A DNA stretch of 35,111 bases from Nitrospirae bacterium CG1_02_44_142. GTDB lineage: Bacteria; Nitrospirota; Thermodesulfovibrionia; Thermodesulfovibrionales; UBA1546. Every line of letters begins with the position of its first letter. Position 1 is the stretch's first letter. Below, in pieces: positions 1 through 35,111 of this stretch. The notes beneath the pieces were generated by a model that was not told where the DNA came from, made no database searches, and was given only the letters and a program-made list of their open reading frames with translations. The position numbers and the translations under genes are program-made. The stretch lies in NCBI GenBank assembly GCA_001871685.1, contig MNVK01000010.1:1-35111 (forward strand), in the 5' to 3' direction.

Positions 1-66
1 CGCTGCCTCGCAGCCTGCGTGTCCCGCGCCGATAACAATTACGTCATAATCACGGTCTTTAAACAT
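1..66 (-). CDS. mnmG: MnmG/GidA tRNA U34 modification enzyme, first 22 codons only (gene runs off the left edge)
   Basis: Not in the ORF track because it is open at the window edge. The reverse complement of 1-66 translates to MFKDRDYDVIVIGAGHAGCEAA. This is the FAD-binding DVIVIGxGHAGxEAA N-terminus typical of MnmG. Confidence 0.7.
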   Translation of the reverse strand, partial: MFKDRDYDVIVIGAGHAGCEAA

Positions 67-162
67 GATTTATTATACCTTATCGGGTTGGTATGAGAAC
101 TTGAAGGGCAAGGCGATATTTATGTGGGGAAGTTTGTTGATAGAGACACTTTAAAATACATC

Positions 163-1491
163 TCAAATTTTCTCTAAATCTAAAACCCAATCAATTTCAA
201 TTATTCCACCGCGACCATTTCTATCAAATCTCATATAACGATTTTTGATTTTGTAGCCCCACTTGTTGGTTATTTTAAAACCATTCCGTTCTGCGATTTC
301 AGTCAAGAAGTCAGCAGTATTAAAGGGAATGTTGCTTACTGAACTGTCGCCGACTACCATTATATAATGCCTGCCTTTGTCTAAGCATTTTGATATTTCT
401 GCAAAGTGATTTTCCATGCCAACAAAATATTTGAATGTAATGTAGGCATGTTTATGCCCATTTTTCTTGTCTATTTTAAATACCCTTTGAATTTTGTCGT
501 CCAGTTTTTTAATTCCTATGATTGTTTCAAATGGCGTATATTCTACAAACTCTTTTTTATAAAAATGTTTTGTCCCTATGTATTCTTTTTTCTTCTCATT
601 CTGTTTTGGCTGTGTTTGAATGCCAAATAAATCTCCAATCCAAAACAACTCAACCATCTGATTATAAATATAATCTATAGCCTTGATATAGGGTGGCGAA
701 GTAATTGCCAAATCTATATTTTGTCCTTTCAGTTTTACTTTTAACGAGTCTGTACTTGATGAACAAATAATCCGATTTCTAAGTTTAGGTTTAATGTTTT
801 CAGAGAACTTTGTAATTCGCTCCTTGAACAAATCAAGTTGTGAAAGAAAAAGACTTAATGGTTCTTCGGGAGCCTTAATGTGAGTGTGTGAAACATAAGT
901 TTTTTGCGACTCATTATCTGCATAAGAAACACGCCGTATTATAGATGAAAAACATATAATTAAAAGATGCTGAATATCCTTAATGCTTTTATTATCGCCA
1001 AATCTTTCAGGTATCTGATTAATGAGAGTCCGTATTATTGAAAGCTTATTTATTGTTTCTTTAGGAAACCAATGTTCAATCGTTTCGCATTCTGGTTTAA
1101 ACTCTCCTCTTTTTTTCTTTTTAATTCCTTTCACAAGCCAGTCTGAAACTTTGTTTAGCTCTGAGATATTAACAGCTGTGGTTTTGACTTTCGCGATTAG
1201 GCATGATAAAGGATCTATGTCAATGCCGATTACATTATGTCCCACTAAAATTCCTTCTACTAAAGTTGTTCCTGAACCACAGAAGGGATCTAAGATAGTT
1301 TTACTTTTTTGCCTTGATAAATACTTATTGATTGCCCATTTTGGAATATGTGGAATGAATTTAGCCGGATATTTATGAAAACCGTGTGTGTGAGCTGTTA
1401 CATTATTAGTAAATATATTTAAAATTGAGCCTTGCTCGATTTCATCTGGTATAAATTCCTTAACAATCAAATAATCCTGCGATTTAATCAT
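163..1491 (-). CDS. DNA amino-methyltransferase (N4-cytosine or N6-adenine), R-M associated
   Basis: 442-aa ORF. SAM motif I is DPFCGSGTTLVEG and catalytic motif IV is ITSPPY, in the order I -> long variable region -> IV. SPPY is more typical of N4C enzymes than DPPY/NPPY. It shows block similarity to the MTase at 18378-19988 (HGFHxYPAxFIP, FCGSGTTLVE, LIAKVKTT, ITSPPY). It overlaps the upstream MTase gene by 4 nt. Confidence 0.85.
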   Translation of the reverse strand: MIKSQDYLIVKEFIPDEIEQGSILNIFTNNVTAHTHGFHKYPAKFIPHIPKWAINKYLSRQKSKTILDPFCGSGTTLVEGILVGHNVIGIDIDPLSCLIAKVKTTAVNISELNKVSDWLVKGIKKKKRGEFKPECETIEHWFPKETINKLSIIRTLINQIPERFGDNKSIKDIQHLLIICFSSIIRRVSYADNESQKTYVSHTHIKAPEEPLSLFLSQLDLFKERITKFSENIKPKLRNRIICSSSTDSLKVKLKGQNIDLAITSPPYIKAIDYIYNQMVELFWIGDLFGIQTQPKQNEKKKEYIGTKHFYKKEFVEYTPFETIIGIKKLDDKIQRVFKIDKKNGHKHAYITFKYFVGMENHFAEISKCLDKGRHYIMVVGDSSVSNIPFNTADFLTEIAERNGFKITNKWGYKIKNRYMRFDRNGRGGIIEIDWVLDLEKI

Positions 1492-2924
1492 CTTTCAAGT
1501 AAAACAATACTTTCTCTTAAGTAATTTTTCAGATATTCTAATCCCTGTTTTTGTTGAGAGCTTGTAGTTAAATGTCTTGTTACAAAGATGCTTTTCACTT
1601 TAAAGCCTATTTCTCTTGCAATTTCAGCAATTAAACTATCTGTTGGAATAATTACACCTGAATAAGCAGAATTGCCCACAACAATTCCTATATAGCCATT
1701 TTTAGTTGTTTGTCTGTAAAGCTTATTTAAAAGAGTGTACATATCATCAAAATAGCCTCTTACGACATTCGGAATATTATTATTCCAAAGCTTTTGAGGC
1801 TCAAAAAGGCTTATAAGATTCTCAAGATATTCATTTCTATAAATTATTAATTTATGATTTAACGAATTTGTATTTGAACGAAAACCAGTGTTTCGCAATT
1901 TTCTGAATTCTTCTTTTTCAGAAACAAACTCTCCAAGCCAAAGCTCAATCTTATGTATCTCAAAATAGTCAAAACAGTTACAGTAAGGAGGCGAAAAGAA
2001 TGTTAATTCAATTTCATCTGAGAAATACTTATCGAACTCTAAGCAGCTACCCTTGTAAATGTTTGGTTTTTTATCACATTTGCCATAATTAAATTTCAAG
2101 TCAGATAGAATCATTTCAAGACGATTAGAAAAATTAGTTTTTACAAAGCTGAATTTGTTATCAGGAAATTTTTCATTTTCCCATCTTTCTTTCTCAATGT
2201 TTATATAACCATTAGGCGTTCTCTTGCGATTTTTGTATTTAATTCCGTTGCCTTCTTTCTTAATGTTTGAAACATCTTCAATGATTGAAAGCCATGCAAC
2301 AAAGAGTACCATTTTTGTTTTTTCATGCTGAATAGCTTTTATATGTTGTTTAAATTGAAGAAGCGCCTGTAAAATTTCTTGATTAAATACTTTTTCAGCT
2401 AAATCAAAAGAGGTCTGAAAAATCTCCTTAGATTTTTCAATGTCCTTCAACTTTTTTAATTCCACTTCAACTTGAATTACGTCCTTTGAAGCATATTGCT
2501 CATTTTCAACTTTGGCAACTAAGACTGAAATAGGGTTTACATCAATTCCAAATGAATTTAAATCAGCTATGCGAGAAGCCAGAAGGGTAGTTCCACTACC
2601 TGAGAATGGGTCAAAAGTATTTCCTTTGATTTTCAACTCTTTGATAAAAGCATTTACAAGTTTTAGAGAGTAACCTTCACGATAGGGAAACCATCTTTGG
2701 ACTGGTGTTTGGTTAGCAAGTTGAAAATGTACTTGATTTCTGAAAGACTCGCCATTATAAAACTGGAGAGACTGTTCGAGCTTATTAAATATTTTTATCT
2801 GCTTTGCTTGTGAATTTTCTAATTCGGCCTCAAAAAGGTTGTAATTTAATGTTGGTTCAGCAACTATGCTGACTACTTCAAATTCGTCAAATGATGTTTT
2901 ATATGCTAATTCGGTATGTCCCAT
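1488..2924 (-). CDS. Second DNA amino-methyltransferase (N4C/N6A class)
   Basis: 478-aa ORF. Motif I is DPFSGSGTTLLAS and motif IV is FFSPPYCNCFDY, with about 200 aa between them. It is divergent from the neighbouring MTase, so it is not a recent duplicate. It is co-oriented and overlapping with that gene. Confidence 0.85.
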   Translation of the reverse strand: MGHTELAYKTSFDEFEVVSIVAEPTLNYNLFEAELENSQAKQIKIFNKLEQSLQFYNGESFRNQVHFQLANQTPVQRWFPYREGYSLKLVNAFIKELKIKGNTFDPFSGSGTTLLASRIADLNSFGIDVNPISVLVAKVENEQYASKDVIQVEVELKKLKDIEKSKEIFQTSFDLAEKVFNQEILQALLQFKQHIKAIQHEKTKMVLFVAWLSIIEDVSNIKKEGNGIKYKNRKRTPNGYINIEKERWENEKFPDNKFSFVKTNFSNRLEMILSDLKFNYGKCDKKPNIYKGSCLEFDKYFSDEIELTFFSPPYCNCFDYFEIHKIELWLGEFVSEKEEFRKLRNTGFRSNTNSLNHKLIIYRNEYLENLISLFEPQKLWNNNIPNVVRGYFDDMYTLLNKLYRQTTKNGYIGIVVGNSAYSGVIIPTDSLIAEIAREIGFKVKSIFVTRHLTTSSQQKQGLEYLKNYLRESIVLLER

Positions 2925-2935
2925 TTTATGTTGTT

Positions 2936-4213
2936 TTAGCCCTTAAATCTGTTACTCCTGTGATACTGAATAAATTCGACTAATGGCAACCTCCTATCCA
3001 TTCTATTCTTGATTTGAATGTTTGCGCTTGAAATTATGGCGGTTTTGAGATTCTGGTTCGGTATATCATTAAATCTTGCTGATGTAATGATTTTATGAGT
3101 ATCAGTAAGTGAGAAATAACCTTTGTCAAAAGCAATATGACAATGCCTGCATAAACATAATCCATTTAAGATATGTGCCCTATGTGGAATATTGCTATCT
3201 TGTGCATTATCAGGCTTAATGTGCGCTGCCTCAACAAAGATTTGTCCTATAACATCACAATTCGGGACAGCACATATGTAATTATATTTCTTTTTTATTC
3301 TTATAGACCATGCCGCATTCCTTATCCTTCGCGTGCTTTGTGAAAACCTCAAATCACTACTTAAAATGTCAATCTCTGGTATCTGAATTTCTTCCTGTTC
3401 TGCAACGGCATCAACTAATGGCGCTGTGAAAATTTCATCGGTAATTTGTTCTTCTATATTTTGTTCTTGTGTTATCGCTTCAAAAATAGAACGAATTGAG
3501 TCTTTGAATGGTGAAATTTCAATTAGTGGATTTTCTCTTATTGATTGCCAGTCTACACCGGTTAGAAATGGACTTGGCTCGAAACTCTTAATCTCTTGAA
3601 TAAAATCTGAATACTTACCTGTATAAAATAATCTTCCTTGTACCTCTTGAAACAGACCTGAATTTATAAGATCTCTTTTCCAGTATGATGCGTTGTCTCC
3701 TACTCTTTGAGTATTGCCGTCAACTAATGCTTCAAATTCTCTAATAGAAATAGAATTCTGAGTATCAAGAATATTTAACAAGAACCTCAAAGGCATTTCA
3801 CCATTTGCCGGATTTATGCTGTATTGAACCTGTGTATTATTGAAAGCATAAATAGCAAGTGAAATTGTTAGAGTTAATTCATAAACTTTTTGGGCTGCAC
3901 CGTAATTACCCACTGTGTAAAGGTCATTCCAAAGACTACCCATTCTTGTCCAGATAAGCGGGCATTGAGTACCATCTTTAATAAAGCCGTAACGAATCAT
4001 TGCACGAATTTTAGTTTGCATTGTAGATGGCTGAATATCGGCGGCGGCTGCAAATTTATACATTTTTTGGTTTCCGCTCCTACCACCAGACCAGCTAAAC
4101 CCAATATATTCAGGTTTTTGACTTTCAAGAACCAATGTTCTGACTGTCAATAATTCTTCAAGATTCGAACTGCTTCTTGAATGAAACCAGTCTCCATTAA
4201 TAGATGCCATCAT
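2936..4213 (-). CDS. HNH-family endonuclease with a large N-terminal domain; putative restriction endonuclease
   Basis: 425-aa ORF. The C-terminal region CAVPNCDVIGQIFVEAAHIKPD...NGLCLCRHCHIAFDKGYFSL matches the HNH (HNH_2-like) pattern C..C..AAHI.P...NGl.L....H..FD.G. The roughly 290-aa N-terminal domain has no catalytic motif I recognise. The segment STMQTKIRAMIRYGFIKDG...WTRMG faintly recalls the recognition domain of AlwI/BstNBI-type enzymes, but this is from memory and weak. It lies 11 nt upstream of the two MTase genes. Confidence 0.7.
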   Translation of the reverse strand: MMASINGDWFHSRSSSNLEELLTVRTLVLESQKPEYIGFSWSGGRSGNQKMYKFAAAADIQPSTMQTKIRAMIRYGFIKDGTQCPLIWTRMGSLWNDLYTVGNYGAAQKVYELTLTISLAIYAFNNTQVQYSINPANGEMPLRFLLNILDTQNSISIREFEALVDGNTQRVGDNASYWKRDLINSGLFQEVQGRLFYTGKYSDFIQEIKSFEPSPFLTGVDWQSIRENPLIEISPFKDSIRSIFEAITQEQNIEEQITDEIFTAPLVDAVAEQEEIQIPEIDILSSDLRFSQSTRRIRNAAWSIRIKKKYNYICAVPNCDVIGQIFVEAAHIKPDNAQDSNIPHRAHILNGLCLCRHCHIAFDKGYFSLTDTHKIITSARFNDIPNQNLKTAIISSANIQIKNRMDRRLPLVEFIQYHRSNRFKG

Positions 4214-4300
4214 TTATCCTCTTCTCAATTAGCACAAGCTATTACTGATGATTATAATAGTTTTATGTCCTGCAATGCTCAAATAATAAAACCGTCACTT

Positions 4301-5404
4301 TTACTTTAACTTCTTTAATAATAGTTCAGGCTCTTTTTCTAAATATACTTCTGGCTGTCCACCAGTTCCTTGAAAAAGTACAAGAATGTGGTGTCCATCG
4401 CGGGTGCTCACAGAGTAATGAGGTTTTTCGTCTACTTTTCCATCTACATATACTTTTTGCCCTTTTGCCCCATCAGGTGATTGATAGAAAGAATCAACTT
4501 TACCATCGGTATCTGACAAATGCCTTTTCTCCGATATGACAACAAGTCCCGGCTTTTCATCTTTCATCGCTCTATAAAGATTTTCTGAAAAACCTGATTC
4601 GAGACCGTGATGAGGTGCTACCAAAATTGAGAGACCATGAGAACCAAGCAAGGATTTTAGCGATGGTTGATTTCCGGTTATTTCGTGCCACGTTGGATGT
4701 ATGGTATTTTGTCTTCTATCAAATACGGTATAACGCTTTTCAAGTCCCTTGCCCTCATCTAACAGATGGTTAAGAGTATCCGGATTTATATCGCCAGGAA
4801 TTAATAATGTGTGAAAACCATGCCTATAGAAAATTATTAGACTTGTTCCATTCCCATACTCTTGATCATTATCTGGGTAAATTTCGCCAATGACCGGAGG
4901 TCTTACATAATAGAGGCCGTATTCTATATTTGGAATAGATTTTAGTGATTCATAGCAAATGGTCTGTAGGGGTAGCTTTCTACCTTCATATATTGACTTA
5001 TATATTTCTAAATTATTTTCACTTCCCTTTGGATTATTAATTCTGTTCCAATCAATAGCCTCAGATTTTGCAGAACCAGTTGTTTTATCATGTGGGCATG
5101 TATGCAACGATGAATAAAAAGGGGAACTTTTCTGATCCGGGGTTGCCAAGCAACTGATATCTGTTATGTGGTCTGCGTGAGGATGAGAAATAATTGTCTG
5201 GGCGACTTTACATTTTTTGTATTCGTCCAAATAAGGAATAATATTTTTATTTAGAAAAGCAGACGGCTTGAAATCTTCTGAGCTTCCAAAATCATACATT
5301 ATTCCTTGGTTAAGAGCTGTGCGGATAAAAATACAAAGCCCACGCCCAACATTGAAAACCCATATATGACTTCTTTGTGATGAAACCCACGATGGAATAG
5401 CCAT
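4301..5404 (-). CDS. Stand-alone metallo-beta-lactamase-fold hydrolase, ComEC C-terminal-domain-like (putative nuclease)
   Basis: 367-aa ORF. It carries IWVFNVGRGLCIF (compare ComEC VGQGD), ISHPHADHITD (the HxHxDH metal motif), LIPGDI and VAPHHGLESG (compare ComEC HHGS). No TM segment or signal peptide is visible. A Shine-Dalgarno AAGGA sits 6 nt upstream, inside the end of the preceding gene. Confidence 0.75.
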   Translation of the reverse strand: MAIPSWVSSQRSHIWVFNVGRGLCIFIRTALNQGIMYDFGSSEDFKPSAFLNKNIIPYLDEYKKCKVAQTIISHPHADHITDISCLATPDQKSSPFYSSLHTCPHDKTTGSAKSEAIDWNRINNPKGSENNLEIYKSIYEGRKLPLQTICYESLKSIPNIEYGLYYVRPPVIGEIYPDNDQEYGNGTSLIIFYRHGFHTLLIPGDINPDTLNHLLDEGKGLEKRYTVFDRRQNTIHPTWHEITGNQPSLKSLLGSHGLSILVAPHHGLESGFSENLYRAMKDEKPGLVVISEKRHLSDTDGKVDSFYQSPDGAKGQKVYVDGKVDEKPHYSVSTRDGHHILVLFQGTGGQPEVYLEKEPELLLKKLK

Positions 5405-5406
5405 TG

Positions 5407-6030
5407 TTATCCTTTATCCTCTTCCGAAATAGTTTTTGATTTTGACTCTTGTGATTTTAAATATTTAATTACAATCACTAATTGAATACTTAAAAAAGCA
5501 AGACCACCTCCAATTACTATTAACCATTTATAACTATACGAAGCCAATACGATAAATAGTAAAACTCCAAGAAGTGTAGAATTTAAAGCTCCAATGATAT
5601 ATGCAAGCCATATTTGACTGCTTTCTCGGCTAAAATAAGGCTGTTTTTCATCTATATACATGCGGGAAGTATTTTCAAATCCAAATGGCTTTAATGCTAA
5701 AAATAGTTTTCTCTGTTCGTTTATATATCGGGAAACCCGAACATAATAAGAGCGGTTAATAAGAACAAGGTAAAACATGAATGCCCCAAGAATCAAACCA
5801 ATTATAAGAGAAATTATAATAGGCATGGTAAAATCTACTTGTAGGTTTGCTTTGAAAATGCCGAGCGCTGCACCAATAAGAACGGTATAGGCAGTAAACA
5901 TGAATTTTAAAATATCAAATATCTGAGTATCGTGATGACGCATCTGTTGAAAGCATTGATTGAAATCACGCTCAAGAAATTTTAATGCCTCTTTTTCTTG
6001 CTCTGAAATATTGTGTATTGCTTCATTCAT
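5407..6030 (-). CDS. Polytopic membrane protein (about 4 TM helices), unknown function
   Basis: 207-aa ORF. It has a polar N-terminal segment of about 40 aa. Four hydrophobic stretches follow: FMFTAYTVLIGAALGIF, MPIIISLIIGLILGAFMFYLVLI, IWLAYIIGALNSTLLGVLLFIVLA and WLIVIGGGLAFLSIQLVIVI. The tail is charged. Its stop codon lies 2 nt before the MBL start codon. Confidence 0.7.
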   Translation of the reverse strand: MNEAIHNISEQEKEALKFLERDFNQCFQQMRHHDTQIFDILKFMFTAYTVLIGAALGIFKANLQVDFTMPIIISLIIGLILGAFMFYLVLINRSYYVRVSRYINEQRKLFLALKPFGFENTSRMYIDEKQPYFSRESSQIWLAYIIGALNSTLLGVLLFIVLASYSYKWLIVIGGGLAFLSIQLVIVIKYLKSQESKSKTISEEDKG

Positions 6031-11392: not shown

Positions 11393-12994
11393 TTATTTCT
11401 TTATCTCAATCCTCGGGAAAAGGTGTTCTGCTTTAGAGACTTTTATTTCGTAAGACGGTTTCCAGTCCCATTCAAAAATTTCAGGGCTGCAATGTTTTGC
11501 CTCATCAACCAAAGATTTCAAGCCAATCTGCTTCCATATCTTCTCTGCTGTGCCAGGCATGAAAGGATAAAGCGAGAGCGCTGTGATTCGCAAGGCATTC
11601 CAGATATTGAACATAACAATTTTCAATTGATCCGTATTCTCCTTTGCGAGTTTCCACGGCTCTTTCCTTGCGATATAATTATTCGCCTCTCCGATTATAT
11701 CCCAGATATTTTCAAGCATCAGACTGAAGCGCAGATGGTCCCAATATTCTTTTCTGTATATATTCATATATGCATAAGCGCACTGCTCTTCAAGCTCTCT
11801 TGATGCGCCTGCATCTATGCGCCCGATATCAATTGCTCCTCCAAAATATTTTTCTGCCATTGTACTGAATCTGCTTACGAGGTTGCCGAGGTCATTTGCG
11901 AGGTCTGTGTTTATCCTGTTAATGAGCGCCTGTTCTGAAAAAACTCCGTCAAGTCCGAAAGACACCTCGCGGAACATGAAATACCGCAGGGCGTCCACAC
12001 CGTATTTTTCGACCATGGCATTGGGGTCAACCATGTTACCGAGGGACTTTGACATCTTCTTCCCGTTAACTGTCCACCAGCCGTGCGCAAAGATATTTTT
12101 TGGAAGAGGAAGGTTTAAGGCCATTAGCATTGTGGACCAATAAACCGCATGTGTGGTAAGAATATCCTTTCCCACAAGGTGGTGTTCGGCAGGCCACCAG
12201 TCTACCCCCCCTTCGCTCCCCCCCTTACCAAGGGGGGGAATAGGGGGGGTGCTGTCAGCTCCAGGTGCAAGATATTTTGTTGCCGAAAAATAGTTTACCA
12301 GGGCGTCAAACCAGACATAGGTGACGAAGTTTTCATCAAACGGCAGTGGAATTCCCCATGAAAGCCTGCTTTTGGGCCTTGAGATGCAGAGGTCTCCGAG
12401 AGTGTTGTTTCTCAGAAACCCGAGAACCTCATTTCTCCTTGTGTCCGGGAGTATGTAGGAGGGGTTCTCTTCTATATATTTGATGAGCCTTTCCTGATAT
12501 TTTGACATGAGGAAAAAATAGTTCTCTTCGTGTATCCGGTCCACAGGCCGGCCGCAGTCGGGACAGTTGCCTTCCACTATGTCCTTTTCAGTCCAGAAGC
12601 GTTCATCAGGAGTGCAGTACCAGCCGGAGTATTCCCTTTTTTCAATCTCTCCCCTGTCCCGGAGCATCTGAAGAAGTCCCTGTACACTCTTGATGTGCGC
12701 ATCGTCGGTTGTCCTGATAAATGCGTCATTGGATATGTTCAGCCTTTTCCAGAGATTGCTGAAATTGTCCACCAGGATGTCTGCATGTTCCTTCGGGGTG
12801 CGCCCTTTTTCAGCGGCTGCCTTCTCCACCTTCTGGCCGTGCTCGTCAGTGCCTGTCAAAAAGAAAACTTCTTTCCCTCTCAGTCTGTTGTATCGCGCAA
12901 GAATATCAGCCGCAATGGTTGTGTATGCGTGGCCTATGTGAGGGATATCATTGACATAGTAGATTGGAGTTGTAACGTAGAATCTCTGTTTCAT
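11393..12994 (-). CDS. metG: Methionyl-tRNA synthetase (short form)
   Basis: 533 aa. It has the HIGH motif (PHIGHAYT), KMSKS, and the zinc knuckle CPDCGRPV. It contains an in-frame palindromic repeat insertion, listed as the repeat feature at 12205-12249. Confidence 0.95.
   Translation of the reverse strand: MKQRFYVTTPIYYVNDIPHIGHAYTTIAADILARYNRLRGKEVFFLTGTDEHGQKVEKAAAEKGRTPKEHADILVDNFSNLWKRLNISNDAFIRTTDDAHIKSVQGLLQMLRDRGEIEKREYSGWYCTPDERFWTEKDIVEGNCPDCGRPVDRIHEENYFFLMSKYQERLIKYIEENPSYILPDTRRNEVLGFLRNNTLGDLCISRPKSRLSWGIPLPFDENFVTYVWFDALVNYFSATKYLAPGADSTPPIPPLGKGGSEGGVDWWPAEHHLVGKDILTTHAVYWSTMLMALNLPLPKNIFAHGWWTVNGKKMSKSLGNMVDPNAMVEKYGVDALRYFMFREVSFGLDGVFSEQALINRINTDLANDLGNLVSRFSTMAEKYFGGAIDIGRIDAGASRELEEQCAYAYMNIYRKEYWDHLRFSLMLENIWDIIGEANNYIARKEPWKLAKENTDQLKIVMFNIWNALRITALSLYPFMPGTAEKIWKQIGLKSLVDEAKHCSPEIFEWDWKPSYEIKVSKAEHLFPRIEIKK
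12205..12249. repeat. 45-nt nested G/C-run palindrome inside metG
   Basis: The plus strand reads C7-TTCGCT-C7-TTACCAA-G7-AATA-G7. At 45 nt (15 codons) it stays in frame and is translated as TPPIPPLGKGGSEGG. Elements of the same architecture occur at 29007-29049 and 34057-34084. Confidence 0.85.
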
Positions 12995-13946: not shown

Positions 13947-14034
13947 AGGTGTCAGGTATCAGGTGTTAGTCTGAAACCTAAAACCTAAAACCTGAAACCT
14001 AATACCTGAAACCTAAAACCTGAAACCTAATCCC
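13947..14034. repeat. Tandem heptanucleotide array with an inverted arm
   Basis: Three AGGT[GA]T[CT] units occupy 13947-13967. Nine T[GA]A[AT]ACC units occupy 13972-14034. The two blocks are imperfect reverse complements. The array provides the last roughly 7 codons and the stop codon of holB. Confidence 0.85.
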
Positions 14035-15095
14035 TTTATTATAATTGTTACATAATTCCATGTAATTGCCTTGTTCAGGTTAAAGCCAAGATAACCCTTC
14101 AAAAATGACAGCCTGCCGTAAATGTTTATTATATCTTTCATCTCTATCGCTTTGCTCATCTCAACGAACCTGTCTTTAAGGTCTATATTTATCAGCATAT
14201 CGCTCTTGCCTGTTATCTTTAATACGGCAATATCCCTTAAAAGCATGAAGGCCTTATTAAACCATAATTCCATCTCTTCCTTGTCGGCCCAGGTCTCTTT
14301 ATTTTTGCCTCCGCCTAATCCGCCTGAGGCGGAGGAGGCTGACATTTCTCCTAAAAGATTGAAAAACCAGTCCCTCTCTTCCATGAGGTCGCTTGAGATT
14401 GCAAGTCCGGGCCTTCCCATGGAAAGCCTTGAAAGAGTTGACAGTTGGGAATCGGTAATCTCCCGCTCCTGATTGTCAATTGCCCCTATGACCTCTTTGC
14501 ATTGCTCAGGAGTTAGAGGTGAAAAGTTTATCCTGGAGCATCTTGACCTTATTGTTTCAGGCAGTCTGTCCGGGCTGGCTGAGATAAGGATTATGATGCT
14601 CTGAGGAGGAGGCTCCTCAAGTGTTTTAAGAAATGCATTAGCGGCAGACGGGTTCATTGTCTCTGCGTCATCAACAATCACGACTTTTCTTTTCCCCTCA
14701 TAAGGCGCAAGTGAGATGGCTTCTTCTATTGCCCTTATCTCATCAACCCGTATCTCTCCCTTTTCAGGCGCTGCCATGATAAAATCAGGGTGTATTCCCG
14801 AATCAATCTTTTTGCAAGAAGGGCACTCATCACAGGCATCCATTCGTAATCCGTAATCCGTAATCCGTAATGAGTTTTTATCTTTTATCCCATCACGCAT
14901 AACGCTTAATGCATTGCGGTCTTTTTGGCAGTTTAAAGTCTTTGCAAGGTTAATCGCAGTGAGCTTTTTGCCTATTCCTGATTCGCCTGCAAATAGATAT
15001 GCCGAGGGCATCCTGTTTCTGCCCATTGTGCCAAGCAGGATATTAATTGCTTTTTTCTGTCCTATAATATTTTTAAGCGCCATATCATAACTCAA
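14013..15095 (-). CDS. holB: DNA polymerase III delta-prime subunit
   Basis: 360 aa. It has an AAA+ clamp-loader fold: Walker A-like GESGIGK, zinc module C..CDECPSC..GIHPDF, and SRC (SRCSRINF). The track start is TTG 15095, and the ATG at 15083 (MALKNIIGQ) is a likely alternative. It contains two repeat-derived in-frame insertions. Confidence 0.85.
   Translation of the reverse strand: MSYDMALKNIIGQKKAINILLGTMGRNRMPSAYLFAGESGIGKKLTAINLAKTLNCQKDRNALSVMRDGIKDKNSLRITDYGLRMDACDECPSCKKIDSGIHPDFIMAAPEKGEIRVDEIRAIEEAISLAPYEGKRKVVIVDDAETMNPSAANAFLKTLEEPPPQSIIILISASPDRLPETIRSRCSRINFSPLTPEQCKEVIGAIDNQEREITDSQLSTLSRLSMGRPGLAISSDLMEERDWFFNLLGEMSASSASGGLGGGKNKETWADKEEMELWFNKAFMLLRDIAVLKITGKSDMLINIDLKDRFVEMSKAIEMKDIINIYGRLSFLKGYLGFNLNKAITWNYVTIIIKGLGFRF
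14308..14335. repeat. CCTCCGCC...TCCGCC-TGA-GGCGGA(GG) palindrome inside holB
   Basis: The hairpin TCCGCC/TGA/GGCGGA lies at 14319-14333, with an alternative outer arm CCTCCGCC at 14308-14315. It is translated as SASSASGGLGG. The same 6-bp stem occurs at 16576-16590 inside the M16 gene. Confidence 0.75.
14844..14919. repeat. Heptamer-array hairpin inserted in holB
   Basis: The sequence TCGTAAT + 3x CCGTAAT occupies 14844-14871. A T/A-rich loop of about 19 nt follows. A degenerate complementary heptamer arm, CATCACG CATAACG CTTAATG CATTGCG, occupies 14891-14918. About 19 of 28 positions are complementary. The element lies between the first Cys and the CDECPSC of the zinc module. Confidence 0.8.
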
Positions 15096-15204: not shown

Positions 15205-16626
15205 TTAATATTTCAGTTCAGCCTTTTTCTGGTTGGCAACAACAATAAGCGCAAAATTCTCAGCATCAAGATATTTTCCGGCGGCGCGCAGCACATCTTC
15301 TTTAGTTACCGCCTCTATGTAAGAAGGGTATTTTTCTGCGTAATCAAGCCCAAGATTATAAAACTCGGCCGTTGCGAGAAAGTCTGCAATCTTCCTGCTG
15401 GTGTCAAGCCTTCTTGGAAAGCTCCCTGTAAGGTAAGCCTTTGCTCCGGAAAGTTCCTCGCCAGAGACTTTCTCCTTTCTGATTTTTTCTATCTGTTTCA
15501 GTATCTCTTCTATCGCTGTATTTGCCGATTCATTTTTTGTCTGTACTTCAATCTGGAATAAACCCTTTTCCTTGTTTGGAGCGAAAAAACTGCTGACGTC
15601 ATAAGCAAGCCCCATCTCATCTCTTATTTTCTGCATAAGCCTGGATGCAAAGCCGCCGCTGCCGAGTATGTAGTTCATAACAGAAACAGCATAATAATCA
15701 GGGTTGTCCCTGCTTATACCGAGATGCCCGATGATTATGCTCGCCTGCGTAACGTCTCTGTCTATCTTTACGACCTTTTTTGTTTTCTCCTCGCTCATTG
15801 GATGGATTTTCCTCTCCGGCAGTTCAGCCATCTTCCATGAATCAAGATATTTTTTAATGAGAGAATTTAATTCGGCAGGCGTAAGGTCGCCGACAACTGA
15901 AAGTATTGCATTGTTGGGGATGAAATATTTTGAATGGAATCTCAAAAGGTCTTCCCGTGTTATTTCTGAAAGGGTTTCTGCGGAGCCTTCCACAAGCCTG
16001 CCGTAAGGATGTTCTCCGAAGGCCTCTTTTTTAAATGAACGCTCTGCAAGAAAAGACGGGTCTTCTTCCCTCTGCTTCAGAGAGCCTTTTATTAGCTCTC
16101 TTTTCCTTTCAAGTTCTTCCTGCGGGAATACAGGGTTCAGAATTATATCTGAGAAAATCTCAAAACCTTTTTCTATATCTTTTTTAAGCACGGAAAGCGT
16201 TACTGTTGTGTAATCGCTTCCTGCCGAGGCGCCGAGCCCTGCGCCTATAAATTCAATCTCCTCGCTTATCTCCGCTGATTTCCTATTTTTGGTCCCTTCA
16301 TCAAGAAGCTCTGCCGTAAGATTGGCAAGCCCGGCCTTTTCTTTTAGCTCGTCAAGCGGCCCGGCTTTTACGATAAGGGTAATCATGACAATAGGCAGAT
16401 TGTGTTTTTCAGCATGCAGAACCGTAAGCCCGTTAGGAAGCATCTTTTTGTTTGCATCAAGGGCATAAGCAGAAGTGAACAGTGAACAGTGAACAGTGAA
16501 CAGTAAGATGAGCCCAGCAGCCCAGTAGCGCAGCAGTCCGGTAGTTAAAGATTTCTGCACTAAAGACTGCTGCTCTCCGCCCGAGGCGGATGCTCTACTG
16601 CTCCGTTGCTCTCTTGACCCTTTCAC
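15205..16626 (-). CDS. M16-family peptidase, non-catalytic-type subunit (no HxxEH)
   Basis: 473 aa with M16 N- and C-terminal domains. The HxxEH position is replaced (NLTAELLDEGT). It is paired with the HxxEH-bearing M16 gene 10 nt upstream. The N-terminal roughly 55 aa are encoded largely by repeats. Confidence 0.8.
   Translation of the reverse strand: MKGSREQRSSRASASGGEQQSLVQKSLTTGLLRYWAAGLILLFTVHCSLFTSAYALDANKKMLPNGLTVLHAEKHNLPIVMITLIVKAGPLDELKEKAGLANLTAELLDEGTKNRKSAEISEEIEFIGAGLGASAGSDYTTVTLSVLKKDIEKGFEIFSDIILNPVFPQEELERKRELIKGSLKQREEDPSFLAERSFKKEAFGEHPYGRLVEGSAETLSEITREDLLRFHSKYFIPNNAILSVVGDLTPAELNSLIKKYLDSWKMAELPERKIHPMSEEKTKKVVKIDRDVTQASIIIGHLGISRDNPDYYAVSVMNYILGSGGFASRLMQKIRDEMGLAYDVSSFFAPNKEKGLFQIEVQTKNESANTAIEEILKQIEKIRKEKVSGEELSGAKAYLTGSFPRRLDTSRKIADFLATAEFYNLGLDYAEKYPSYIEAVTKEDVLRAAGKYLDAENFALIVVANQKKAELKY
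16475..16504. repeat. Tandem heptamer GTGAACA x4 inside the M16 N-terminal region
   Basis: The sequence is GTGAACA GTGAACA GTGAACA GTGAACA GT. It is translated on the minus strand as FTVHCSLFTS, which is the hydrophobic core of the apparent signal peptide. Confidence 0.85.
16576..16590. repeat. TCCGCC-CGA-GGCGGA palindrome inside the M16 5' region
   Basis: It has the same 6-bp stem as the holB element at 14319-14333. It is translated as ASASGGE. Confidence 0.7.
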
Positions 16627-23036: not shown

Positions 23037-23123
23037 TGGTGCCGAAGGCGGGATTTGAACCCGCACAGCCTTTCGACCACTAGACCCTGAACCTAGCGCG
23101 TCTGCCAGTTCCGCCACTTCGGC
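23037..23123 (-). tRNA. tRNA-Leu (anticodon CAG)
   Basis: The 87-nt minus-strand sequence runs GCCGAAGTGGCGGAACTGGCAGACGCGCTAGGTTCAGGGTCTAG...GCGGGTTCAAATCCCGCCTTCGGCACCA. It has a 7-bp acceptor stem, anticodon loop UUCAGGG, a long variable arm, a T-arm GCGGG/CCCGC and an encoded CCA. Confidence 0.9.
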
Positions 23124-24013: not shown

Positions 24014-24111
24014 TGGCGGGAGCGTGTGGGAATCGAACCCACCCTTCCGGTTTGTGGCCGGAAACACCGGCTTTGAAGGCCGGGAGGGACACCAGAACCC
24101 TATGCACTCCC
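24014..24111 (-). tRNA. selC: tRNA-Sec (selenocysteine, anticodon UCA)
   Basis: The 98-nt minus-strand sequence runs GGGAGTGCATAGGGTTCTGGTGTCCCTCCCGGCCTTCAAAGCCGGTGTTTCCGGCCACAAACCGGAAGGGTGGGTTCGATTCCCACACGCTCCCGCCA. The anticodon stem CCGGC/GCCGG carries loop CUUCAAA. It has a long extra arm (TTCCGG/CCGGAA), a T-arm GTGGG/CCCAC and a G73-CCA end. Confidence 0.85.
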
Positions 24112-28095: not shown

Positions 28096-28935
28096 ATGTA
28101 TAAAAGAATTCTTACCGCAGTAAATGAGCACCTTAACTCAGAGGTTACCGCGCGGTATGCAATGAATCTTGCAAGGGTAAGCGGGGCGCGGCTTTATCTC
28201 TGTTTTGTTGCTGAGAAAGGAATGGCAGCTTCCACAATTGACAGGGCGGAGGAAGCGATGAAGCGCATATTCATTGAAGCGGGGGAAATTGGCATAGAGA
28301 TAGAGGCTGTAACAGAGACAGGAGACCCCGTGAAAAAAATAAGCGAACTTGTAAGAGGCGAGAGGATAGATATTGTCTTTGCCTCAACAAGAAAGGAAGA
28401 TATTGAAAGGAGGTTTTATGCCGGCACTATTGCGAGACGGCTTTCTCTCAGCCTTCCCTGTTCCACAGCTATTGTCAGAGTAGTGCACACAGGCAGGATA
28501 CGCCCGAGAGAGATACTTGTCCCCCTCAAGGCGAGGATTGACCATGTTCAAGAAAGGGCATATTTTACGGCAAAGCTCGCTCAGGCATTCGGCTCAAAGG
28601 TCTTTCTATTCCACTCTCCTGAAGCGGCGTCAAAATTTTTTCATGGAGAAATTCATCTAACGCCGCTTGAATGGGAAGAGAAACTCCCCGATGATATATC
28701 GGACTTTATGGAGTATATGCAGAAATACAGGATTGCACATGCGGGGAGGTCTGTTCCGGGAAGCACAGGCAGGGTGATTGCGATAGAGGCCTTCTCTAAA
28801 AGGCATGACCTTATAATAATGGGGGCCAGCCGGAGGAGCATGCTGAGTTCTATATTAAAAGGCAATCCTGTTGAGGAAGTGCTGAGAGAAACGCCCTGCG
28901 ATATGATAATACTAAAGCCGCGAGTTTCTATATAG
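28096..28935 (+). CDS. Universal stress protein, tandem UspA domains
   Basis: 279 aa. It has two USP-like halves (YKRILTAVNEH... and ILVPLKARIDH...). The C-terminal segment GASRRSMLSSILKGNPVEEVLRETPCDMIILK is the typical USP ATP-binding tail. Confidence 0.8.
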   Translation: MYKRILTAVNEHLNSEVTARYAMNLARVSGARLYLCFVAEKGMAASTIDRAEEAMKRIFIEAGEIGIEIEAVTETGDPVKKISELVRGERIDIVFASTRKEDIERRFYAGTIARRLSLSLPCSTAIVRVVHTGRIRPREILVPLKARIDHVQERAYFTAKLAQAFGSKVFLFHSPEAASKFFHGEIHLTPLEWEEKLPDDISDFMEYMQKYRIAHAGRSVPGSTGRVIAIEAFSKRHDLIIMGASRRSMLSSILKGNPVEEVLRETPCDMIILKPRVSI

Positions 28936-29097
28936 ACATGGACGGCATAACATTTTCGCTCATTCTCGCCCCGAGCTGCTCGGGACTCCGAGGGCTTTTG
29001 CCTTTACCCCCCTTAAATTCCCCCCTTGCCAAGGGGGGATATAGAGGGGTGGAATATCGGCAAAAGAATCCGCTCAAATGCCATGCCGTCCATGTCT
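28934..29097. mobile_element. 164-bp MITE-like element with perfect 15-bp terminal inverted repeats
   Basis: AGACATGGACGGCAT (28934-28948) pairs with ATGCCGTCCATGTCT (29083-29097). Internally it holds the hairpin CCCGAGC-TG-CTCGGG (28970-28984). It also holds the nested G/C-run palindrome C6-TTAAATT-C6-TTGCCAA-G6-ATATAGA-G4 (29007-29049). It has no coding capacity. Confidence 0.7.
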
Positions 29098-34056: not shown

Positions 34057-34084
34057 CCCCTCTTTTTAAAGAGGGGTGAGGGGA
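34057..34084. repeat. G/C-run palindrome (CCCCTCTTT-TT-AAAGAGGGG-TGA-GGGGA) in the TPR gene leader
   Basis: It has the same general architecture as 12205-12249 and 29007-29049, except that the inner stem is CCCCTCTTT/AAAGAGGGG. Confidence 0.65.
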
Positions 34085-34094
34085 GATTACTAAA

Positions 34095-35111
34095 ATGAAA
34101 CAATTTATTAAGTTCCTTTCTATCGCAGTTATTGCCTTCCTATTTTTAACAGCCACGGCTTTTGCAGAAAAGGTCACATTCGTTAAGGAATACGATTACA
34201 ATGCAAGTGATTTAGACAGCAAGGTGTCCAGCCGGGCCATTGCATTAGAGCAGGTCAAACGACTCCTTCTCGAAGAACTGGGTACATATCTTATAAGTGA
34301 AACAGAGGTTAAAAACTTCAGATTAACAAAAGACCAGATTACTACTTATTCAGCAGGTGTTGTCAGCGCAGAGGTTGTTGATGAAAAATGGGACGGCAAG
34401 ACCTATTACCTCAAGGCAAAGGTCGCAGCAGACCCTGTGGAAGTGGCTAAATCTCTGCAAAACATTGCTAATGACAAGCAGAAGTCAAAGGACTTAGAGG
34501 ACATAAGAAAAAAAGCAACAAAGTTTTCAAAGGAAATTGAGAGATTAAAAAAAGAACTGGAAATAGCAAAGGCGGATACCAAGAAGCCGGAACAAAAAGC
34601 AGACGCAAAGAAGGACGAAGGCAAAGTTTATACTAATCAGGATTTGATTAAGCAATATAATCAGGCTGTAAAAGGATTAAGTGCGACGACAGAAACTCTT
34701 CATGATATGTTTATAAAGAGGGTAACTGCATGGGATTGGTTTGATAAGGGCAATGCTTTTTTAGAATCAAGGAATTACAACGATGCCATAAATGCCTATA
34801 ACAAGGCAATTCAATTAAATCCTAATAACGATGTGGCTTACCTCAAGCGTGGGGTTGCTCACTTTAACTTGGGCAACTATCAGCAGGCAATAAATGACTA
34901 TAACATGGCAATAAATGACTATAACATGGCAATTCAACTAAACCCTCAATATGCAGATACTTACAACGGTCGTGGGGTTGCTTACGGTAAATTAGGTAAC
35001 TCTCAGAAGGCTATAAATGACTTTAACAAGGCAATTGAATTAAACCCTCAATATGCAGAGGCATACAGCAATCGTGCAGTTGTTTACTTTAAGTTGGGGG
35101 ATGAACATAAA
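34095..35111 (+). CDS. Secreted TPR-repeat protein, 5' part (runs off the right edge)
   Basis: Not in the ORF track because it is open-ended. I translated by hand from the ATG at 34095 and found 339 codons with no stop. The product has the signal peptide MKQFIKFLSIAVIAFLFLTATAFA, a charged coiled segment, and then TPR units (AINAYNKAIQLNPNN, AINDFNKAIELNPQYAEAY). Confidence 0.8.
   Translation, partial: MKQFIKFLSIAVIAFLFLTATAFAEKVTFVKEYDYNASDLDSKVSSRAIALEQVKRLLLEELGTYLISETEVKNFRLTKDQITTYSAGVVSAEVVDEKWDGKTYYLKAKVAADPVEVAKSLQNIANDKQKSKDLEDIRKKATKFSKEIERLKKELEIAKADTKKPEQKADAKKDEGKVYTNQDLIKQYNQAVKGLSATTETLHDMFIKRVTAWDWFDKGNAFLESRNYNDAINAYNKAIQLNPNNDVAYLKRGVAHFNLGNYQQAINDYNMAINDYNMAIQLNPQYADTYNGRGVAYGKLGNSQKAINDFNKAIELNPQYAEAYSNRAVVYFKLGDEHK
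34887..34928 (+). repeat. Perfect 21-nt tandem duplication inside a TPR unit
   Basis: GCAATAAATGACTATAACATG occurs at 34887-34907 and again at 34908-34928. This duplicates AINDYNM in frame. Confidence 0.9.

What the first reader, a model, noticed from the sequence alone, without database searches (positions are those of the whole stretch)
12205..12249. 45-nt nested G7/C7 palindrome inserted in frame in methionyl-tRNA synthetase
The sequence C7-TTCGCT-C7-TTACCAA-G7-AATA-G7 is exactly 15 codons and is translated as TPPIPPLGKGGSEGG. It sits in a loop just before the conserved WP..H..GKDI block of MetRS. Elements of the same build occur in two non-coding places in this window (29007-29049, 34057-34084). 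It therefore looks like a dispersed palindromic element that landed inside an essential gene without breaking the frame. This is analogous to the Rickettsia palindromic elements known to insert in frame into proteins. Four 7-nt homopolymer runs inside an essential CDS are also a slippage hazard.
Basis: partly seen in the sequence, partly recalled or inferred. Interest (0 to 1): 0.65.

Follow-up and report, generated by a model that had tools for sequence, protein, structure and literature searches.

The report
Coding-tolerant G/C palindrome inside MetRS
A 45-base hairpin-forming repeat from a family found in several bacterial phyla sits in frame in a surface loop of an essential enzyme, which shows that short selfish-looking DNA can live inside housekeeping genes well beyond Rickettsia.

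Summary
Window 12205-12249 is C7-TTCGCT-C7-TTACCAA-G7-AATA-G7, inside metG (11393-12994, minus strand), read as T249-G263.

- The nearest orthologues (91-93% nt identity) lack the element. They carry either the 12-residue ancestral loop or heptamer repeats.
- Solved MetRS structures lack it, and AlphaFold2 gives low confidence only there and at residues 128-139.
- The same nested build occurs at 29007-29049.
- 70 of those 126 elements lie in long ORFs, in all three codon phases and both orientations. Hosts include ValRS, GlyRS-beta, PheRS-beta, TopA and UvrA.

The claimed third copy (34057-34084) has a different build.

The MetRS loop is a hot spot: five loop states occur within a clade at >=87% identity, including other palindromes and heptamer arrays. 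The element is also 43-44/45 nt identical in three orthologues whose synonymous sites are otherwise saturated. That implies lateral spread, re-insertion or nucleotide-level constraint.

Best reading: a small non-autonomous REP/SDR/RPE-like element whose C/G runs encode Pro/Gly in any frame. The mobilising enzyme is unknown.

The parts
12205..12249 (.). 45-bp nested G/C palindrome (C7-TTCGCT-C7-TTACCAA-G7-AATA-G7 on the + strand). On the metG sense strand it reads C7-TATT-C7-TTGGTAA-G7-AGCGAA-G7 and encodes T249-G263.
   Evidence: Absent from the nearest orthologues. 43-44/45 nt identical in P0011, P0102 and P0065.
11393..12994 (-). metG, methionyl-tRNA synthetase (533 aa, short form without the C-terminal tRNA-binding domain). 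This is the host gene.
   Evidence: AlphaFold2 model with mean pLDDT 84.3; the only segments below 50 are residues 128-139 and 248-264.
12199..12267 (-). Replaced loop tract A243-D265 (69 nt), the stretch over which this lineage differs from its sister lineages. Upstream of it the window matches P0002 up to ...TATCTTG. Downstream, TGGTGGCCTGC is identical in all seven orthologues read at DNA level.
   Evidence: DNA comparison; identities.
29007..29049 (.). Second family member (C6-TTAAATT-C6-TTGCCAA-G6-ATATAGA-G4), intergenic between usp and a P-type ATPase gene. It belongs to the TT(T/A)AATT...ACATA sub-family, which also occurs in other Nitrospirota.
28934..29097 (.). 164-nt imperfect palindrome (33-nt terminal arms, 82% complementary; perfect 13-nt ends ACATGGACGGCAT). 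It carries the second copy at its centre and looks like a MITE-type insertion. It is absent in two relatives whose usp protein is 86% identical, where the two genes overlap.

Best explanation
The 45-bp stretch is a member of a family of small, non-autonomous, hairpin-forming repeats. Members have two G:C helices of 6-7 bp separated by an asymmetric internal loop, capped by TTNNNAA, with flanks of the form xA...Tx. The family is dispersed in Nitrospirota and also occurs in Cyanobacteria and Planctomycetota.

Shown:
- The element occupies a loop of MetRS between the helix ending SATKYL and the strand HLVGKDI.
- It is absent from the nearest relatives.
- It is part of one continuous reading frame.
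- Family members lie in intergenic DNA and inside many housekeeping genes, in all three codon phases and both orientations.

Inferred:
- The unit moves or spreads at the DNA level. The route could be a trans-acting hairpin-recognising enzyme, template switching at hairpins, or short-patch recombination of an already occupied loop between lineages.
- Selection then keeps only copies that preserve the frame, lack stop codons and fall in permissive surface loops.
- The architecture makes this likely. CCC and GGG encode Pro and Gly in every frame and in both orientations, so the arms never create stop codons and always encode flexible loop-forming peptide. Only the short spacers and the cap can introduce a stop.
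- In MetRS the product is an extra disordered Pro/Gly-rich loop of about 15 residues (net +11) that the enzyme tolerates. The cost is a very stable mRNA hairpin, two Pro-Pro pairs and four slippery runs.

The loop then behaves as a landing pad. In related lineages it holds other members of the family, a second palindrome family, or heptanucleotide tandem arrays.
For: Anatomy and non-randomness.

Empty or different sites in the closest relatives. P0010 has the baseline loop and P0002 has (ACTCTCA)3, both at 91-93% nt identity.

The DNA is primary, not the peptide.
- P0013 carries the element in the opposite orientation.
- 70 of 126 scanned elements lie in ORFs of at least 600 nt, with codon phases 37/20/13.
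- One Nostoc ORF (L045) holds two copies in opposite orientations.

Read through, not bypassed. 45 of 50 elements with at least 300 nt of open frame on both sides keep the same frame.

Hosts are real conserved genes. They include UvrA, TopA, ValRS, chorismate synthase, aminopeptidase N, GlyRS-beta, PheRS-beta, ChlH/CobN and aconitase B.

Family structure. Sub-families share spacer sequences across loci and phyla, and 116 of 126 elements have non-complementary spacers.

Dispersal in the same community. Unitigs break inside the element, word depth there is about 7-fold higher, and other contigs match with 1-3 mismatches.

Permissive site. Aquifex and Thermus MetRS show a gap at the insert. In the 110-sequence AlphaFold2 model, pLDDT falls below 50 only at residues 248-264 and 128-139.

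Hot-spot behaviour.
- 120 orthologues show many loop states, five of them within the clade at >=87% identity.
- holB, two genes from metG, has a second such loop that holds heptamer arrays in the window and palindromes in L002 and L142.
Against: - No transposase or other mobilising function was identified, and no clean filled-versus-empty pair shows a target-site duplication.
- The MetRS copy is not a simple insertion into the baseline loop. The whole loop is replaced, for a net gain of 11 residues.
- The exact spacer pair TTCGCT/AATA was seen only in MetRS genes. Siblings in the same metagenomes share only the AATA side.
- The element is 43-44/45 nt identical in orthologues whose synonymous sites are saturated (third-position identity 0.48-0.50; binomial P 3e-5 to 3e-4). 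The adjacent Pro244 codon meanwhile reads CCT, CCG, CCA and CCC in the four bearers. A neutral passenger would not show this pattern. It points to constraint on the nucleic acid, repeated re-insertion, or recent lateral spread.
Confidence: 0.7

Rival explanations
1. The hairpin (or an alternative G-quadruplex, i-motif or triplex fold) is itself functional and is kept by selection on the nucleic acid. It could be a translational pause site between the two halves of the Rossmann fold, an mRNA stability or processing signal, or a protein-binding DNA structure. The peptide would be a by-product.
For: - All 28 run positions and both spacers are conserved between genes with saturated synonymous sites.
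- The C/G runs persist in two ValRS orthologues at 73% aa identity even though the reading phase inside the element differs.
- The apical three bases vary while stems do not.
- The predicted RNA hairpin is very stable.
- From the sequence alone, G7-N6-G7 fits G3-N1-G3-N6-G3-N1-G3, a quadruplex pattern.
Against: - The nearest relatives do without the element, and many lineages have decayed versions such as IPSTPLDKRGIEGG and KPPHPAPGKERPMGG.
- The same loop accepts unrelated repeats.
- Both orientations occur in coding DNA.
- No Rfam family matches.
- The conserved non-pairing spacers are not explained by a plain hairpin.
Confidence: 0.15
2. The palindrome arose in place, not from a mobile family. 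Homopolymer expansion and hairpin-templated repair (template switching) in a tolerant loop would produce similar G/C palindromes independently at many sites.
For: - The same loops also hold heptamer tandem arrays, which are products of slippage.
- Indels in runs and spacers occur over time.
- No transposase and no target duplication were seen.
Against: - Independent local origin does not explain spacer sequences shared across loci and phyla (TTTCAT/AAAGA, TTTAATT/ACATA).
- It does not explain the fixed TTNNNAA cap, or the equal run lengths within an element (6,6,6,6 or 7,7,7,7).
- It does not explain near-identical copies at other loci of the same community.
Confidence: 0.1
3. The Pro/Gly-rich loop is an ancestral, selected feature of this MetRS, and the palindromic DNA merely reflects codon choice for PPxPPLxKGGxxGG.
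For: Similar peptides occur in about 25 of 120 Nitrospirota orthologues.
Against: - The peptide is absent from the nearest relatives and from solved MetRS structures.
- The same DNA is read in three phases in other proteins, giving different peptides (PPLxKGG, PPLxRGG, PPYQGG).
- Copies exist in non-coding DNA.
- Exclusive use of CCC and GGG codons is not expected from selection on the protein.
Confidence: 0.04
4. Assembly artefact or chimera formed at a repeat.
For: Unitigs break inside the element, and it is repeated in the community.
Against: - The same sequence appears in an independent JGI contig and in four runs spanning 2014-2017, with equal depth on both sides.
- Both gene halves are equally similar to the same relatives.
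- The frame is intact, and the same arrangement occurs in three other assemblies.
Confidence: 0.01

Closest known systems
Rickettsia palindromic elements (RPE; Ogata et al. 2000, as summarised in PMC3184786)
   Same: Palindromic repeats found both between genes and inside essential protein-coding genes. They are in frame, translated, and sit at positions the protein tolerates.
   Different: RPEs are about 105-146 nt, AT-rich and restricted to Rickettsia. This element is 36-47 nt and built of G/C homopolymer runs. It is readable in every phase and orientation and occurs in at least three phyla. No sequence relationship is expected, and none was tested.
Small dispersed repeats (SDR1-8) of Nostocaceae (Elhai et al. 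2008, Genome Res 18:1484). The paper is not held in the library. Details come from my memory and from PMC4390886, PMC5861425 and bioRxiv 10.64898/2026.06.24.733823.
   Same: Very small hairpin-forming mobile repeats, nested within heptamer tandem arrays, mini-transposons or a fixed short motif (SDR5 inside HIP1). Here, copy B sits inside a 164-nt palindrome. The holB and some MetRS copies adjoin heptamer arrays. The commonest cyanobacterial flank pair is AT...AT (26 of 70), often extending to GAT...ATC.
   Different: SDRs are 21-27 nt and were reported only in Nostocaceae. These elements are about twice as long, have the four-run G/C architecture, occur in other phyla too, and are mostly inside ORFs in Nitrospirota (21 of 30).
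REP / REPIN elements mobilised by RAYT (Y1 HUH) transposases (PMC3733652, PMC6006769)
   Same: Imperfect palindromes of 20-40 bp in high copy number, whose hairpins contain a conserved unpaired region. A trans-acting enzyme that recognises hairpins is the most plausible kind of mobiliser.
   Different: REPs are extragenic by definition and carry a GTAG or CGTC head. Here more than half the copies are intragenic, and the flanks are xA...Tx. No RAYT gene could be looked for.
GC clusters and 'byp' elements of yeast mitochondria (Lang et al. 2014 PNAS; from memory)
   Same: Short G/C-rich palindromic mobile inserts that occur inside protein-coding genes.
   Different: Byps are skipped by the ribosome and need not keep the frame. 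Here 45 of 50 flanked elements keep the frame, which argues for ordinary translation.
Intrastrand triplex motifs such as TMECO (PMC4666352)
   Same: G/C-rich runs in a C-run / G-run / G-run order, abundant in some cyanobacteria and linked to local genome instability. The window's 34057-34084 motif fits this pattern better than the nested palindrome does.
   Different: TMECO is intergenic, proteobacterial, and has a mirrored third arm. The MetRS element is a symmetric four-arm palindrome.

Membership tests
Rickettsia palindromic elements (RPE) | Palindromic repeat inserted in frame in protein-coding genes as well as in intergenic DNA | tested here: met
Rickettsia palindromic elements (RPE) | Length about 105-146 nt and sequence similarity to RPE families; confined to Rickettsia | tested here: not met
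   The element is 45 nt (36-47 nt across the family). The host is Nitrospirota. Sequence similarity was not tested but is implausible given the composition.
REP / REPIN (RAYT-associated) | Imperfect palindrome of 20-40 bp in many copies | tested here: met
REP / REPIN (RAYT-associated) | Conserved GTAG or CGTC tetranucleotide head | tested here: not met
   Flanks are CA/TA/AA ... TA/TG in Nitrospirota and AT...AT in cyanobacteria. GTAG was seen once, inside a spacer (L030).
REP / REPIN (RAYT-associated) | Extragenic location | tested here: not met
   70 of 126 elements lie in ORFs of at least 600 nt; 21 of 30 in Nitrospirota.
REP / REPIN (RAYT-associated) | A RAYT (Y1 transposase) gene in the same genome, flanked by the repeats | not testable with these tools
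   No whole genome of the source organism was available, and none of the fetched loci was examined for such a gene.
Small dispersed repeats (SDR) of Nostocaceae | Size 21-27 nt | tested here: not met
   Elements are 36-47 nt. SDR5 is 21 nt according to bioRxiv 10.64898/2026.06.24.733823.
Small dispersed repeats (SDR) of Nostocaceae | Nested inside heptamer tandem arrays, mini-transposons or a fixed short motif | tested here: inconclusive
   Copy B is inside a 164-nt palindrome. The holB copy in L002 and a second palindrome family in L010 adjoin heptamer arrays. The MetRS copy in the window has no heptamer flank.
MITE | Terminal inverted repeats, target-site duplication, about 100-400 bp, related to an IS element | tested here: not met
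   The 45-nt unit is too short, and no duplication is evident. The 164-nt palindrome around copy B is MITE-like in its ends, but no duplication or parent IS was identified.
Methionyl-tRNA synthetase (host gene) | Class I HIGH and KMSKS motifs, tRNA-synt_1g domain, similarity to solved MetRS | tested here: met
   The motifs HIGH (H19-H22) and KMSKS (313-317) are in the translation. Pfam domains. 2csx at E 2e-141.

The most novel reading that the evidence does not exclude
These are a cross-phylum class of coding-compatible palindromes that do not insert at random. They occupy, and are re-acquired at, specific loops of essential genes (MetRS, ValRS, holB) by a homing-like or recombination-driven process, and their nucleotide sequence is actively maintained.

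The evidence that does not exclude this reading:
- The same 45-nt allele, flanks included, is present in five MetRS lineages that are not sisters in the neighbour-joining tree. DNA was read for four of them; P0045 is known only from its peptide.
- All or nearly all synonymous positions of the element are intact, against a saturated background.
- The same kinds of repeat alternate at a second loop two genes away.

If true, this would be a new kind of gene-resident selfish element, or a structural signal with a function, together with heptamer arrays as its landing pads.
Probability: 0.2. Interest if true: 0.85.

Novelty: new variant of a known kind. Interest (0 to 1): 0.68.

Why it matters
In-frame palindromic repeats inside essential genes have been treated as a Rickettsia peculiarity, with a few other cases. 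This result shows a much shorter element with a different design doing the same thing in free-living Nitrospirota, Cyanobacteria and Planctomycetota.

The design explains why the host tolerates it: G/C runs encode Pro and Gly in any frame and orientation.

The result also has practical uses.
- It explains a recurrent class of odd PPLxKGG-type inserts and Pro/Gly loops in predicted proteins from metagenomes.
- It warns that assemblies and gene calls break at these sites.
- It gives natural markers of permissive loops in aminoacyl-tRNA synthetases and other enzymes.
- It provides a concrete test case for asking how very small repeats move and whether they are maintained at the nucleotide level: one loop, many alleles, several culturable cyanobacterial hosts.

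Tried and rejected
Scans and look-ups that gave nothing:
- Two metagenome-contig scans returned no hits. One used the exact spacer pair and one the broader AATA sub-family. The window's own JGI contig was not found either, so this says nothing about true abundance.
- The viral-contig scan gave only three loci, which I did not pursue.
- Rfam at gathering thresholds matched only a tRNA-Sec and one other tRNA.
- Literature searches for the peptide motifs and for descriptions of such elements found nothing specific. Elhai et al. 2008 is not held in the library.

Analyses that were weak or inconclusive:
- The first AlphaFold2 run, with 30 sequences, was too poor to use (mean pLDDT 68.9). I replaced it with a 110-sequence run.
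- The one metatranscriptome run holds related strains (90-95% identity), not this one. It shows the heptamer-type loop allele and sibling elements in RNA contigs, but no contig spans this metG element.
- The span from first C to last G showed no length bias modulo 3 between intragenic and intergenic copies.

Ideas considered and set aside:
- Ribosomal bypass or RNA-level removal, because the frame is kept.
- A recombination tract wider than the loop. Flank identity to P0011 is only modestly raised, and those flanks are conserved in all lineages.
- A TA target-site duplication. The xA...Tx flanks are equally explained as one more base pair of the palindrome.
Full report
**What is there**

Window 12205-12249 reads C7-TTCGCT-C7-TTACCAA-G7-AATA-G7 on the + strand. 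It lies in the 533-aa ORF 11393..12994 on the minus strand. That ORF is methionyl-tRNA synthetase of a Nitrospirota (Thermodesulfovibrionales-like) organism from groundwater.

On the sense strand the element is C7-TATT-C7-TTGGTAA-G7-AGCGAA-G7. It runs from codon position 2 of T249 to position 1 of V264 and gives TPPIPPLGKGGSEGG between SATKYLAPGADS and VDWWPAEHHLVGKDI.

- G/C hairpins of this kind are far above chance: two loci (five overlapping matches) against 0.09 matches expected, with 0 of 100 shuffles reaching five.
- The window's only runs of seven C or G are these four.
- The surrounding 76 nt fold as RNA at -49.7 kcal/mol, z = -4.15.

**Not an artefact**

The same protein is encoded on an independent JGI contig. 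Logan contigs of four runs from 2014-2017 carry the identical sequence, with equal depth on either side. Their unitigs break inside the element, and word depth there is about seven times the flank. Other contigs match 12217-12251 with 1-3 mismatches. Near-identical siblings therefore exist at other loci in the same communities. Only contigs were available, so run-length heterogeneity could not be examined.

**It is an insert relative to relatives and structures**

Among 120 Nitrospirota orthologues, about 40 have a 12-residue baseline loop (xPHAExAKLGDF) between SAT[KR]YL and WWPA.

| Orthologue | nt identity to window metG | Loop |
|---|---|---|
| P0010 | 91-92% | HPENAKLGDF (baseline) |
| P0002 | 91-93% | three tandem ACTCTCA heptamers |

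- Aquifex and Thermus MetRS align with a gap across the insert.
- A 110-sequence AlphaFold2 model (mean pLDDT 84.3, pTM 0.89) has pLDDT below 50 only at residues 128-139 and 248-264. The second segment is the element-encoded stretch plus or minus one residue.
- The net gain over the baseline is 11 residues. The whole tract A243-D265 differs from the sister lineages.

**It belongs to a dispersed family**

Copy B at 29007-29049 (C6-TTAAATT-C6-TTGCCAA-G6-ATATAGA-G4) has the same nested build.

I scanned one genome per species for C6-N2-8-C6-TTNNNAA-G6-N2-8-G6.

| Group | Stretches (of 119; my count from the titles) | Elements | Elements in ORFs of >=600 nt |
|---|---|---|---|
| Cyanobacteria | 66 | 70 | 36 |
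| Nitrospirota | 29 | 30 | 21 |
| Planctomycetota | 9 | 11 | 6 |
| Others | 15 | 15 | 7 |

- Sub-families share spacer sequences across loci and even across phyla. Examples are TTTCAT/AAAGA in Cyanobacteria and Planctomycetota, and TTTAATT/ACATA in Nitrospirota (copy B belongs to the latter).
- The four runs of an element usually have equal length (6,6,6,6 or 7,7,7,7).
- 116 of 126 elements have non-complementary spacers.
- Flanks are xA...Tx in Nitrospirota and AT...AT in cyanobacteria.

**The family lives inside genes and is read through**

- 70 of 126 elements lie in ORFs of at least 600 nt with at least 30 open codons on each side. All three codon phases are used, 37/20/13, giving PPLxKGG, PPLxRGG and PPYQGG.
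- Of 50 elements with at least 300 nt open on both sides, 45 keep the same frame. This argues against bypass or excision.
- Hosts are conserved genes: UvrA, topoisomerase I, ValRS, chorismate synthase, aminopeptidase N, GH57, GlyRS-beta, PheRS-beta, ChlH/CobN, aconitase B, protein kinases and a DEAD helicase.
- Both orientations occur in coding DNA. The P0013 MetRS carries the element in the opposite orientation to the window's. One Nostoc ORF holds two copies in opposite orientations.
- The DNA unit is therefore primary and the peptide secondary.

The design accounts for this tolerance. This is my inference from the genetic code: C and G runs give Pro and Gly in any frame and either orientation and never give a stop.

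**The MetRS loop is a hot spot**

Across the 120 orthologues, the loop holds one of the following:
- the baseline;
- members of this family with different spacers;
- a second G/C palindrome (PSPSRGEGKGGGE);
- in-frame heptamer arrays, such as (ACTCTCA)n = TLNSQLS, (AATCTCA)n = NLKSQIS and (GTTCACG)n = SVHGSRF.

In a loop-masked neighbour-joining tree the states are patchy. Five states occur within the window's clade at >=87% identity.

The same behaviour appears in holB, two genes away. The loop between LNCxK and DxCDEC is empty in L006, L009 and L011. In the window it holds inverted heptamer arrays. In L002 and L142 it holds heptamers plus a C7 or C6 palindrome. The window and L142 share RNALSVMRD although the proteins are only 56% identical.

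The window's P-type ATPase carries +19 and +5 residue heptamer inserts relative to relatives whose neighbouring usp protein is 86% identical.

**An unexplained conservation**

The element in the window is 43, 44 and 43 of 45 nt identical to that in P0011, P0102 and P0065.

| Measure | P0011 | P0102 | P0065 |
|---|---|---|---|
| Third codon positions identical, within the element | 15/15 | 15/15 | 14/15 |
| Third-position identity at identical residues, elsewhere in the gene | 0.499 | 0.498 | 0.484 |
| Binomial P | 3e-5 | 3e-5 | 3e-4 |

- The adjacent Pro244 codon is CCT, CCG, CCA and CCC in the four genes.
- Each bearer's nearest neighbour in the tree has a baseline loop, although deep NJ branches are unreliable.
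- For the window lineage, the nesting among loop-different relatives at 91-93% nt identity is secure.
- The options are lateral spread of the occupied loop by short-patch recombination, repeated site-specific insertion of one master copy, or constraint on the nucleic acid. I cannot separate them.
- In ValRS, two orthologues (73% aa identity, third-position identity 0.52) carry the element at the same site. Their spacers differ, and their internal reading phases differ (LAKGG versus LLRGG), offset by compensating indels. The runs persist, and slippage does happen.

**Other sites in the window**

- Copy B is the centre of a 164-nt imperfect palindrome, 28934-29097, with 33-nt arms and perfect 13-nt ends. 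The palindrome is absent in two relatives where usp and the ATPase gene overlap.
- The site 34057-34084 is not of the same build. It is a single hairpin followed by a mirrored G-run. It resembles the intrastrand triplex pattern described in PMC4666352.

**Comparison with known systems**

- The behaviour matches Rickettsia palindromic elements (PMC3184786), but size, composition and host differ.
- The nesting with heptamer arrays and mini-transposons matches what I recall of the small dispersed repeats of Nostocaceae. Those are 21-27 nt and were reported only in that family.
- REP/RAYT membership fails on the head motif and on extragenic location. Presence of a RAYT gene could not be tested.
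- I found no description of this family.

**Verdict**

It is extended to a cross-phylum family of coding-tolerant palindromes and to hot-spot loops. The mechanism of spread is inferred, not shown.

Noticed in passing
window 12199-12267 and orthologues P0002-P0120: The MetRS loop between SAT[KR]YL and WWPA is hypervariable across 120 Nitrospirota orthologues. It holds the baseline loop, several G/C palindrome types, or in-frame heptamer tandem arrays. Five states occur within the clade at >=87% identity.
   Followed up: yes
window 14770-14900 (holB, ORF 14013-15095, minus strand); L002:1121-1252; L142:3175-3327: DNA polymerase III delta-prime has a second hot-spot loop. The window carries inverted heptamer arrays, (CGTAATG)n ... 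(GATTACG)n, with the TRF array at 14845-14871. L002 and L142 carry heptamers plus a C7 or C6 palindrome. Close relatives have no insert. The window and L142 share RNALSVMRD at only 56% overall identity.
   Followed up: partly
window 30359-30420 and 30607-30656 (P-type ATPase, ORF 29112-31829, plus strand): In-frame heptamer arrays, (GGATTCA)4, GCATCAG and (AAAATTC)n, add 19 and 5 residues relative to the ATPase genes of L139 and L140, whose neighbouring usp protein is 86% identical to the window's.
   Followed up: partly
window 16474-16504 (ORF 15205-16626, minus strand; peptidase M16-like by synteny): (GTTCACT)x4 encodes TVHCSLFT near the N-terminus. The peptide implies the same heptamer as in the MetRS loops of P0004, P0006 and P0007 (SVHCSLFTVHC), whose DNA was not read. 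Heptamer families therefore look dispersed too.
   Followed up: no
window 13974-14030: Intergenic array of eight AAACCTA/AAACCTG heptamers at the holB start, between the PSP1-like gene and holB.
   Followed up: no
window 28934-29097: 164-nt imperfect palindrome (ends ACATGGACGGCAT) inserted between usp and the ATPase gene, with the C6 palindrome at its centre. It was not found elsewhere in the window. Among fetched loci its ends occur only in contigs that encode the identical usp protein.
   Followed up: partly
window 34057-34084: CCCCTCTTT-TT-AAAGAGGGG-TGA-GGGGAGA, a hairpin plus mirrored G-run just upstream of an ATG at 34096. It resembles published intrastrand triplex motifs rather than the nested palindrome.
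   Followed up: partly
L074:3259-3302 and L119:2713-2756: Two Thermodesulfovibrionia ValRS genes carry the element at the same site (between IKYPL and YITVATTRPET). Their spacers differ and their internal reading phases differ, balanced by compensating indels.
   Followed up: yes
window 24018-24111 (minus) and 23040-23123 (minus): A selenocysteine tRNA gene (66.6 bits) and a second tRNA gene.
   Followed up: no
window 1-6000: G+C is 33-36% here against 40-47% in the rest of the window. This may be a region of different origin or function.
   Followed up: no
window 12268 boundary; run X25: A metatranscriptome contig from a related strain carries the heptamer-type MetRS loop (RC of ...CCAACCACTCTCAACTCTCAACTC...). 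That repeat allele is therefore present in RNA-derived contigs, although DNA carry-over cannot be excluded.
   Followed up: partly
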